Positions 44,838 to 46,466 of a DNA stretch of 64,000 bases are shown piece after piece (position 1 is the stretch's first letter; every line of letters starts with the position of its first letter). The notes under the pieces were generated by a model. It had not been told where the DNA came from, did not search any database, and saw only the letters and a program-made list of their open reading frames with translations. Source of the stretch: Pecten maximus (Eukaryota); the NCBI RefSeq assembly GCF_902652985.1, contig NC_047032.1:18662001-18726000 (forward strand), given 5' to 3'. Both the position numbers and the translations under genes were made by a program.

Positions 44838-46466
44838 ATTTTAAGCATTTTTATGAGAAACAGGATTTTCGCTGATAGTGATGTAAAAACCTTTAGCCTT
44901 ATTATCTCGGTAAGTAAACTATTAAGTCGACACATATTTCGGTTTATGTCGGCATATCTTTTGATGATGTCGACATCTAAGAAATATGTCGACATATTTA
45001 AATCGTAACGCTGCAACTCGATGACAGATAAATATGCCACCATAGATCCCCTTTGTTTTGTTAACCAAGTTTTATTGCTTGTCAAAATATAGACTTTCTG
45101 ATTTATGTGATAACACGTACCTTAAATTTGTTTTCATATGATATGAGAATTTATGAACACTTGTCTCAAATGTTTATTTTTGCTCACCAAGTCTCGCGAA
45201 ATAGAAATCTCACCAAGGCTCAGAGGACTCGTTTCATAAAATTTCATACGAAATGAAAAGTCATTAAGATCCAAGATGTAAGTGACTCATAACGGCGAAT
45301 TCCAATCTAAAAGTATATATTGTTGTCTGATTCTTCTTAATTAATTTATAACGTCAAGAATGATGTATCAACGAAGAGTATAAGATATTCCCTTAGCTAT
45401 ATGTTAATATTTGGCCTGAAGACATATTATTGATTTTTATTCTTTTACAGGACTATTGTATACAGTATGCATATTTTGCCTGGAGGTTCCAGAAAGACAG
45501 GTGTAAGCCTACATGTGAATATAGATTAGTCTGTAGATAAATACACAGTGTTAGGTTCTTCATGATGCCTCTAGGTACATGTATGATACAGAAAGCCTAA
45601 TCATTATGACTATATATAGATCGTTTGTCAATAAATCATTTATGTAATTAACTTGTACCAACACAAACAAATACCTCCAAAATGTCCAAACATATGTTAT
45701 TATGTAATGAAGAGTACCGGGAAAATACGAATAATGAACGCATAATGAACTACTATGGCGAAAATGTTTAAACAAGCTACTATTACGGCAGTAATACACG
45801 TTAAAATTGATATTGTAACAAACACGAGACTACACGAACACGGTAGTAATATACGTTATAATTTAAAAGTTAAACGAGACTTACCTGTAAGTTGAAGTTT
45901 GATTGGAATTATACCGAGTCACAGGGGTCAATCAAGGGATCAATTGAGAAGACACTTCCGGTTCCAGCATCAGTATTCAACGCATAGCGACATGCCAAAC
46001 TTTGCACACTTTCATATATATAAATAAATTTATATATAGACCCAAAATCAAGTTTCAAATAAACCCTTACCTAACTGGGAGGGAGTATAAAGGGAGGGCA
46101 TTTGATCCCTTGGTTGACCCCTGTGACTCGGTAGAATTCCAATCAAACTTAAACTTACAGGTAAGTCTCGTTTAATTTTTAAATTCTACCTCGTCACGTG
46201 GTCAATCAGGGATCCAATGAGACTTTAAAGTGGCATGAGCTATGAGAAACTAGTACCAACAGGGCATAATAACTATCAATAAATAAATAACCCAGCTAGA
46301 ATCTCAAGTAAAAATGTTCTATTAAACTTCAAAACATATATACACTGACAATGCACAGAAAACCATGTACCGGTACACGAATGTCATATATAAAATACAT
46401 GTCCATAGAGTCCTGATCACAGTGCTATTGCTGTCTCTCTGCCAATGCACCACCAAAAAAGTTTGA

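What the first reader, a model, noticed from the sequence alone, without database searches (positions are those of the whole stretch)
46077..46098. Matching G-quadruplex motif abutting the DIRS ICR
Seen: GGGAGGGAGTATAAAGGGAGGG (loops 1, 8, 1) ends at 46098, and ICR homology to the right terminus starts at 46099. In element sense it reads CCCTCCC-N8-CCCTCCC immediately 3' of the ICR. This is the same strand and position as in the Ngaro element, although the two elements have opposite repeat architectures (inverted versus split direct). Priming of YR-retrotransposon reverse transcription is poorly understood (no tRNA PBS or classical PPT), so a shared motif is a candidate mechanistic element.
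Basis: partly seen in the sequence, partly recalled or inferred. Interest (0 to 1): 0.72.

Follow-up and report, generated by a model that had tools for sequence, protein, structure and literature searches.

The report
G-quadruplex stop signal in retrotransposons
Most families of two kinds of jumping gene in this genome carry the same short guanine-rich motif at the edge of the internal repeat used to rebuild their ends; it likely folds into a four-stranded knot that would stop the copying enzyme there, a step not yet explained.

Summary
Confirmed and general. GGGAGGG-N8-GGGAGGG (46077-46098) abuts the right ICR of a decayed DIRS1-like element; the window's Ngaro element has the same tract just after A2. 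With repeat edges found without reference to the motif, a two-unit CCC-N-CCC...CCC-N-CCC motif starts within 12 nt of the edge in 25 of 28 DIRS and 14 of 16 Ngaro families, but only 2 of 18 PAT-like families; background 0.1-0.3%. Tracts stay while the loop varies from 1 to 49 nt (about 100 in one further family). A prediction noted before fetching held in 6 of 7 testable Ngaro copies. Contigs of other organisms show it too. The G-rich strand is the single-stranded minus cDNA, and in both architectures the polymerase copying the internal circle junction from that strand would run into the tract at the edge. Best reading (0.5): a G-quadruplex strong-stop, not a primer site; engineered template-strand G4s stop Ty1 cDNA (PMC8074290). 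Against: absent from most PAT-like families, long loops, no wet test, DIRS-1 itself unchecked. Not found in 10 literature searches, but the Goodwin/Poulter papers were unavailable.

The parts
46077..46098 (+). Two-unit G-tract motif (GGGAGGG-N8-GGGAGGG); G-rich on the element's antisense (cDNA) strand; predicted G-quadruplex
   Evidence: G4 in the predicted fold with RNA parameters; unpaired at the top of the rTer/rICR stem in the centroid DNA fold
46099..46188 (-). Right ICR, complementary to the right terminus
   Evidence: 90 nt, 93%
46182..46222 (-). Left ICR, complementary to the left terminus; overlaps the right ICR at the AAT circle junction
   Evidence: 97.6% over 41 nt
45857..45974 (-). 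Right terminus: conserved ITR part (45946-45974) plus divergent ITR and right extension
50672..50737 (-). Left terminus / left ITR
48345..48641 (-). Reverse transcriptase fragment of the DIRS element (gene broken by stops and frameshifts)
   Evidence: PF00078, E 2.9e-9
46525..47095 (-). Tyrosine recombinase remnant (HSTR motif; broken and internally shortened)
   Evidence: E 1.3e-15 to an intact relative; the C-terminal 65 aa alone gave no Pfam hit
15780..15986 (+). Ngaro repeat A1
19888..20321 (+). Ngaro repeat B1
20318..20524 (+). Ngaro repeat A2
20525..20544 (+). Ngaro two-unit C-tract motif (G-rich on the antisense strand), offset 0 from A2
20799..21231 (+). Ngaro repeat B2

Best explanation
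A two-unit G-tract motif lies on the antisense strand at the outer edge of the internal repeat in most DIRS and Ngaro families examined; it likely folds into a G-quadruplex on the single-stranded cDNA and would stop the polymerase once it has copied the internal circle junction. SHOWN: position, strand, conservation of tracts with free loops, and that internal and terminal repeat copies stay alike up to that edge. PUBLISHED for DIRS-1 only: the cDNA is antisense and single-stranded, lacks only the left repeat, and the ICR acts after first-strand synthesis. INFERRED: in DIRS the folded-back cDNA 3' end copies left ICR then right ICR from its own strand and halts at the G4, leaving a nick or flap to close the circle; in Ngaro a plus-strand copy of B1-A2 made on the cDNA halts at the G4 and serves as the bridge between the two cDNA ends. 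The stop site would thereby define the length of the repeat.
For: 25 of 28 DIRS and 14 of 16 Ngaro families vs 0.13-0.33% of random positions; 0 of 62 families have it G-rich on the sense strand; a two-unit motif follows the terminal partner copy in 1 of 62. Offsets -3 to +10 nt. Held-out: 6 of 7 testable copies at -1 to +2 (prediction noted). Linkers vary (T 30, A 28, G 5, two-base 7) and loops run 1-49 nt, which fits a fold better than a fixed protein site. Ngaro motifs are mostly four tracts with 1-nt loops; G4 in the predicted fold for 15 of 16. 23 of 24 differences between the window's A2 and relative L197's A2 are mirrored in A1, down to 22 nt from the edge. PMC7192593: cDNA antisense, single-stranded; ICR deletion leaves cDNA synthesis intact. 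PMC8074290: a G4 placed on the template strand of Ty1 gave a shorter cDNA matching a stop at the G4.
Against: 16 of 18 PAT-like families share the split-repeat design and equally alike repeats yet lack the motif, so it is not required by that design. Only 15 of 28 DIRS and 9 of 16 Ngaro families have four perfect 3-G tracts; predicted folds include a G4 in only 9 of 28 DIRS families (RNA parameters, short-loop limit); six DIRS families have 31-49 nt loops with no consistent hairpin (z -2.1 to +0.6 over 8 loops). L314 lacks it; L188 has it 17 nt away. The within-family test was inconclusive (2 of 12 core C vs 11 of 33 flank C variable, p 0.46). In DIRS-1 a marker inserted between ICR and right repeat still allowed transposition; I could not see whether DIRS-1 has the tract. 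The motif definition was chosen after seeing data, and families are related, so nominal p-values overstate. In the Ty1 paper the short band did not rise with G4 stabilisation. No folding or cDNA end was measured here.
Confidence: 0.5

Rival explanations
1. The same edge is marked without a G4: a GC-rich RNA remnant resisting RNase H, or a protein bound to the G-rich single strand, blocks the polymerase there; the remnant could also prime plus-strand synthesis into the spacer.
For: Explains position and strand equally; tolerates imperfect tracts (10 of 28 DIRS, 5 of 16 Ngaro) and long loops.
Against: Does not predict a second unit kept 30-100 nt away with unrelated sequence between, nor the four-tract, 1-nt-loop form in Ngaro.
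Confidence: 0.2
2. Priming site: a G-rich primer anneals to the C-tract of the RNA, as at a primer binding site, or a G-rich antisense RNA remnant acts as a polypurine tract, and minus-strand synthesis starts at the edge.
For: The geometry (repeat, then tract) matches a primer binding site; the window's motif is 20 of 22 purines on the antisense strand; the primer of DIRS is unknown.
Against: Starts with CCC, not the TGG that pairs with tRNA CCA (own knowledge), and the sequence is not fixed. DIRS-1 cDNA lacks only the left repeat and carries a marker placed 3' of the ICR. A DIRS cDNA started at the ICR would have no right-repeat template to fold back on (inference). Offsets vary 0-10 nt.
Confidence: 0.12
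3. RNA-level element: C-rich site for poly(C)-binding proteins (PCBP/hnRNP K) or an i-motif, controlling RNA stability, 3' processing or packaging.
For: The sense RNA carries CCCUCCC/CCCACCC runs, the kind PCBPs bind (abstract listings; otherwise recalled).
Against: Gives no reason to sit 0-10 nt from the repeat edge in both architectures when the spacer is 80-700 nt long.
Confidence: 0.1
4. Hairpin between the first C unit and the GGG near the ICR end, or a transcription block downstream of the A2 promoter copy.
For: 21 of 28 DIRS families can form 4 or more pairs across the edge.
Against: Native pairs fold no better than cross-family chimeras (p 0.34-0.45), Ngaro shows none; a promoter block cannot apply to DIRS.
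Confidence: 0.05

Closest known systems
DIRS-1 ICR replication model (PMC7192593: abstract, Introduction, section 22, Discussion part 1, supplement text, passages read; PMC3266345: passages)
   Same: ITR/ICR anatomy, 3-nt junction, single-stranded antisense cDNA, ICR acting after first strand
   Different: No stop signal or G/C-rich motif described; searches inside the texts found none
Engineered G4 in Ty1 (PMC8074290: abstract and section 3.3 read)
   Same: Template (minus)-strand G4 cuts cDNA short in a retrotransposon in vivo
   Different: Artificial and inhibitory; here natural, fixed at a repeat edge and apparently selected
Quadruplex motifs in plant LTR retrotransposons (PMC3902901: abstract only)
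   Same: Strand-biased G4 motifs at discrete places in retroelements
   Different: Inside LTRs around the promoter; not at a copying boundary; not YR elements
Neisseria pilE G4 (search listing and abstract starts)
   Same: A cis-acting G4 beside a recombining repeat locus that is needed for the reaction
   Different: Bacterial gene conversion on chromosomal DNA, started by an R-loop; no reverse transcription
Retroviral strong-stop and central termination signals (recalled, not read)
   Same: A programmed end point of DNA synthesis that sets repeat ends
   Different: Made by template end, modified tRNA base or A-tracts, not by a G4

Membership tests
DIRS1-like retrotransposon (window element) | Inverted terminal repeats plus bipartite ICR with 3-nt junction | tested here: met
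DIRS1-like retrotransposon (window element) | RT, tyrosine recombinase, methyltransferase | tested here: inconclusive
   RT and YR found; MT motif not found in the decayed window copy, present in 17 of 23 DIRS family representatives long enough to test
Ngaro | A1-ORFs-B1-A2-B2, no methyltransferase, Ngaro RT clade | tested here: met
   MT motif 0 of 16, downstream hydrolase motif 11 of 16; GDSL hit below cut-off
PAT-like (control group) | Split direct repeats with methyltransferase, RT nearer DIRS | tested here: met
   MT motif 14 of 18; definition from PMC4157794 passages
Canonical G-quadruplex | Four runs of three or more G with short loops | tested here: met
   window motif loops 1, 8, 1; perfect in 15 of 28 DIRS and 9 of 16 Ngaro families, some with long central loops
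Canonical G-quadruplex | K+-dependent folding and polymerase arrest | not testable with these tools
   only an RNA-parameter prediction
tRNA primer binding site | Begins TGG, fixed complement to a tRNA 3' end | tested here: not met
   begins with C runs at variable offset; no tRNA comparison run
Polypurine tract | Purine-rich on the RNA (sense) strand just 5' of the 3' repeat | tested here: not met
   G-rich on the sense strand in 0 of 62 families

The most novel reading that the evidence does not exclude
DIRS and Ngaro retrotransposons, two lineages with opposite repeat designs, use a natural G-quadruplex in their single-stranded cDNA as a programmed strong-stop that defines their repeats and enables circle closure: a replication signal not described for any retroelement, probably widespread in animals.
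Probability: 0.45. Interest if true: 0.85.

Novelty: new variant of a known kind. Interest (0 to 1): 0.72.

Why it matters
How tyrosine-recombinase retrotransposons rebuild their ends has rested on a 1985 model that gives no signal for where copying of the internal junction ends. A 15-60 nt motif shared by DIRS and Ngaro gives a precise, cheap test of that step, a marker for annotating the internal repeat edge, and a case of a G-quadruplex as a working part of a retroelement rather than an obstacle. Its absence from most PAT-like elements points to a second solution.

Tried and rejected
Close relatives of the window DIRS element by DNA search: eight copies with a matching left end (L031-L038) had no recombinase or right end in 8 kb, so uninformative. 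Viral-contig scans found no relatives. Of 89 metagenome/MAG loci only 4 gave a motif-blind edge; most short-read contigs end before or at the repeats; of 24 Ngaro-type contigs with 900 nt or more after the recombinase, a stricter pattern found a C motif in 6 and a G motif in 4, without edges, so this is not counted either way. TATA-box reading of the loop: present in the window and L039, absent elsewhere; rejected. Hairpin covariation across the edge: not significant. Hairpins in long loops: not significant. Within-family conservation: inconclusive. TATA/start mapping in A repeats: no consistent signal, script stopped early. Sequencing runs were all contigs: no molecule ends, no circle-junction joint seen; nothing concluded. 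The RT tree is the quick tree, not the finished search. Papers not held: DOIs 10.1128/microbiolspec.MDNA3-0036-2014 and 10.1093/molbev/msh072, PMID 12524337, PMC4271202; supplements of PMC9210276 unreadable; the DIRS-1 sequence is not in the text of the PMC7192593 supplement.

Full report
Observation. The motif is at 46077-46098 and the right ICR starts at 46099. The host element is a decayed DIRS1-like retrotransposon on the minus strand (50737 to about 45860) with ITRs, bipartite ICR, RT and YR remnants. The Ngaro element at 15780-21231 has the same C-tract directly after A2. Outside low-complexity runs these are the only two such motifs in the window; 1 of 2000 shuffles of the element held one.

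Survey. I searched the own genome (G000, 918 Mb) with DNA and with DIRS, Ngaro and PAT-like proteins, fetched stretches, and added 80 metagenome and 9 MAG loci. Of 281 loci examined, 226 had a recombinase hit and 122 gave a repeat edge by a procedure that does not look at the motif; 104 gave none and were dropped. Clustering on coding DNA gave 29 DIRS, 16 Ngaro (3 from metagenome contigs) and 19 PAT-like families. I removed L303 (same spacer as L055) and L087 (tandem artefact). Clades come from a quick RT tree of 86 rows or, for 36 loci without usable RT, from architecture; domain motifs agree.

Result. A two-unit motif (CCC-N1-2-CCC, or one tract of two C) starts within 12 nt of the edge in 25 of 28 DIRS (15 perfect), 14 of 16 Ngaro (9 perfect) and 2 of 18 PAT-like families, one of those a plain C run; random positions give 0.13-0.33%. 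Fisher p is 1e-7 (DIRS vs PAT) and 1e-5 (Ngaro vs PAT), overstated because families are related and the definition was set after looking. It is never G-rich on the sense strand (0 of 62) and follows the terminal partner copy in 1 of 62. Misses: L314 (none; a tract lies in its ITR instead), L071 (mutated copy; siblings have the first unit and a second about 100 nt on), L317, L178 and L276 (one unit by the rule). Loops run 1-49 nt in DIRS and 1-5 in Ngaro; linker bases vary. For eight Ngaro copies whose A1 I had not fetched I noted the prediction first: seven were testable, six ended -1 to +2 nt from the tract (one belongs to a family already counted) and one 17 nt away. Other organisms: L259/L266, L269, L276 (edge determined), and DIRS contigs L281, L282, L286 with a tract after an ICR recognised by eye only; L283 shows none and L288 is unclear. 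The hosts are unnamed, so breadth beyond this is untested.

Mechanism. PMC7192593 shows for DIRS-1 that the cDNA is antisense, single-stranded, mostly linear, lacks only the left repeat, and that ICR deletion blocks a step after first-strand synthesis; no primer is known. The G-rich strand here is therefore the cDNA. In DIRS, the cDNA 3' end copying left then right ICR moves toward the tract; in the predicted fold of the window's cDNA end the terminus pairs with the ICR and the tract sits unpaired at the top of the stem in the centroid structure. In Ngaro, a plus-strand copy of B1-A2 moves toward it too. A stop there explains why identity between internal and terminal copies (median 100%) falls to chance at the tract and why subfamily changes are mirrored in A1 and A2 (23 of 24), although PAT-like elements show equally alike repeats without it. 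A template-strand G4 engineered into Ty1 gave cDNA cut at the G4 (PMC8074290). That the motif folds, and that synthesis ends there, are inferred. Priming is less likely: no TGG start, wrong strand for a polypurine tract, variable offset, and DIRS-1 cDNA includes sequence 3' of the ICR.

Against. Most PAT-like families lack the motif; many DIRS members are imperfect or long-looped, and only 9 of 28 get a predicted G4; hairpin and within-family tests were negative or inconclusive; a marker between ICR and right repeat did not block DIRS-1, whose sequence I could not inspect; public runs offered only contigs.

Literature. Ten full-text searches found no paper describing a G4 or C-rich tract at DIRS or Ngaro repeats. 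I read passages of PMC3266345, bioRxiv 10.1101/2021.08.05.455354, PMC6681497, PMC3783388, PMC4157794 and PMC2685390 without finding one. The founding Goodwin/Poulter papers and Repbase notes were not available, and unread supplements or figures may mention it, so novelty is provisional. Five look-ups in the scan's own notes found no earlier report of this motif.

Verdict. A real, conserved cis-element of DIRS and Ngaro retrotransposons, most likely a G-quadruplex strong-stop for copying the circle junction (0.5). Interest 0.72.

Noticed in passing
window 45881-45889 and 46158-46166; L039, L082, L086 families: The DIRS right terminus carries a 5' splice-site consensus in sense (CAG/GTAAGT), mirrored in the ICR; found in 12 of 28 families at two positions. 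Could bind U1 or set the RNA 3' end (splice consensus recalled).
   Followed up: partly
window 15780-21231: The Ngaro copy has broken reading frames yet has copies 99-100% identical elsewhere in G000: a young non-autonomous family that keeps repeats and tract.
   Followed up: partly
L344-L368 (PAT-like families): Many PAT-like elements have a T-rich stretch after A2 instead of the C-tract; possibly a different signal.
   Followed up: no
L084 and L082, just after the right ICR: The bases between the edge and the tract can pair with those after it (6 bp in L084), so the stop may lie at a stem enclosing the G4.
   Followed up: no
L314: DIRS outlier without the tract after the ICR but with a G/C tract inside its ITR.
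   Followed up: no
window 45779-45863 and 50734-53229: The DIRS element sits inside a 55-61 nt tandem satellite, with units on both sides.
   Followed up: no
L281-L289: Contigs filed in bacterial MAGs hold eukaryote-type DIRS elements, probably host contamination.
   Followed up: no
L173, L177, L186, L193: Several Ngaro families place the hydrolase-like frame upstream of gag rather than after the recombinase.
   Followed up: no
window 4874-6109 (-) and 58597-59763 (+): Long open frames (411 and 388 aa) unrelated to this finding.
   Followed up: no
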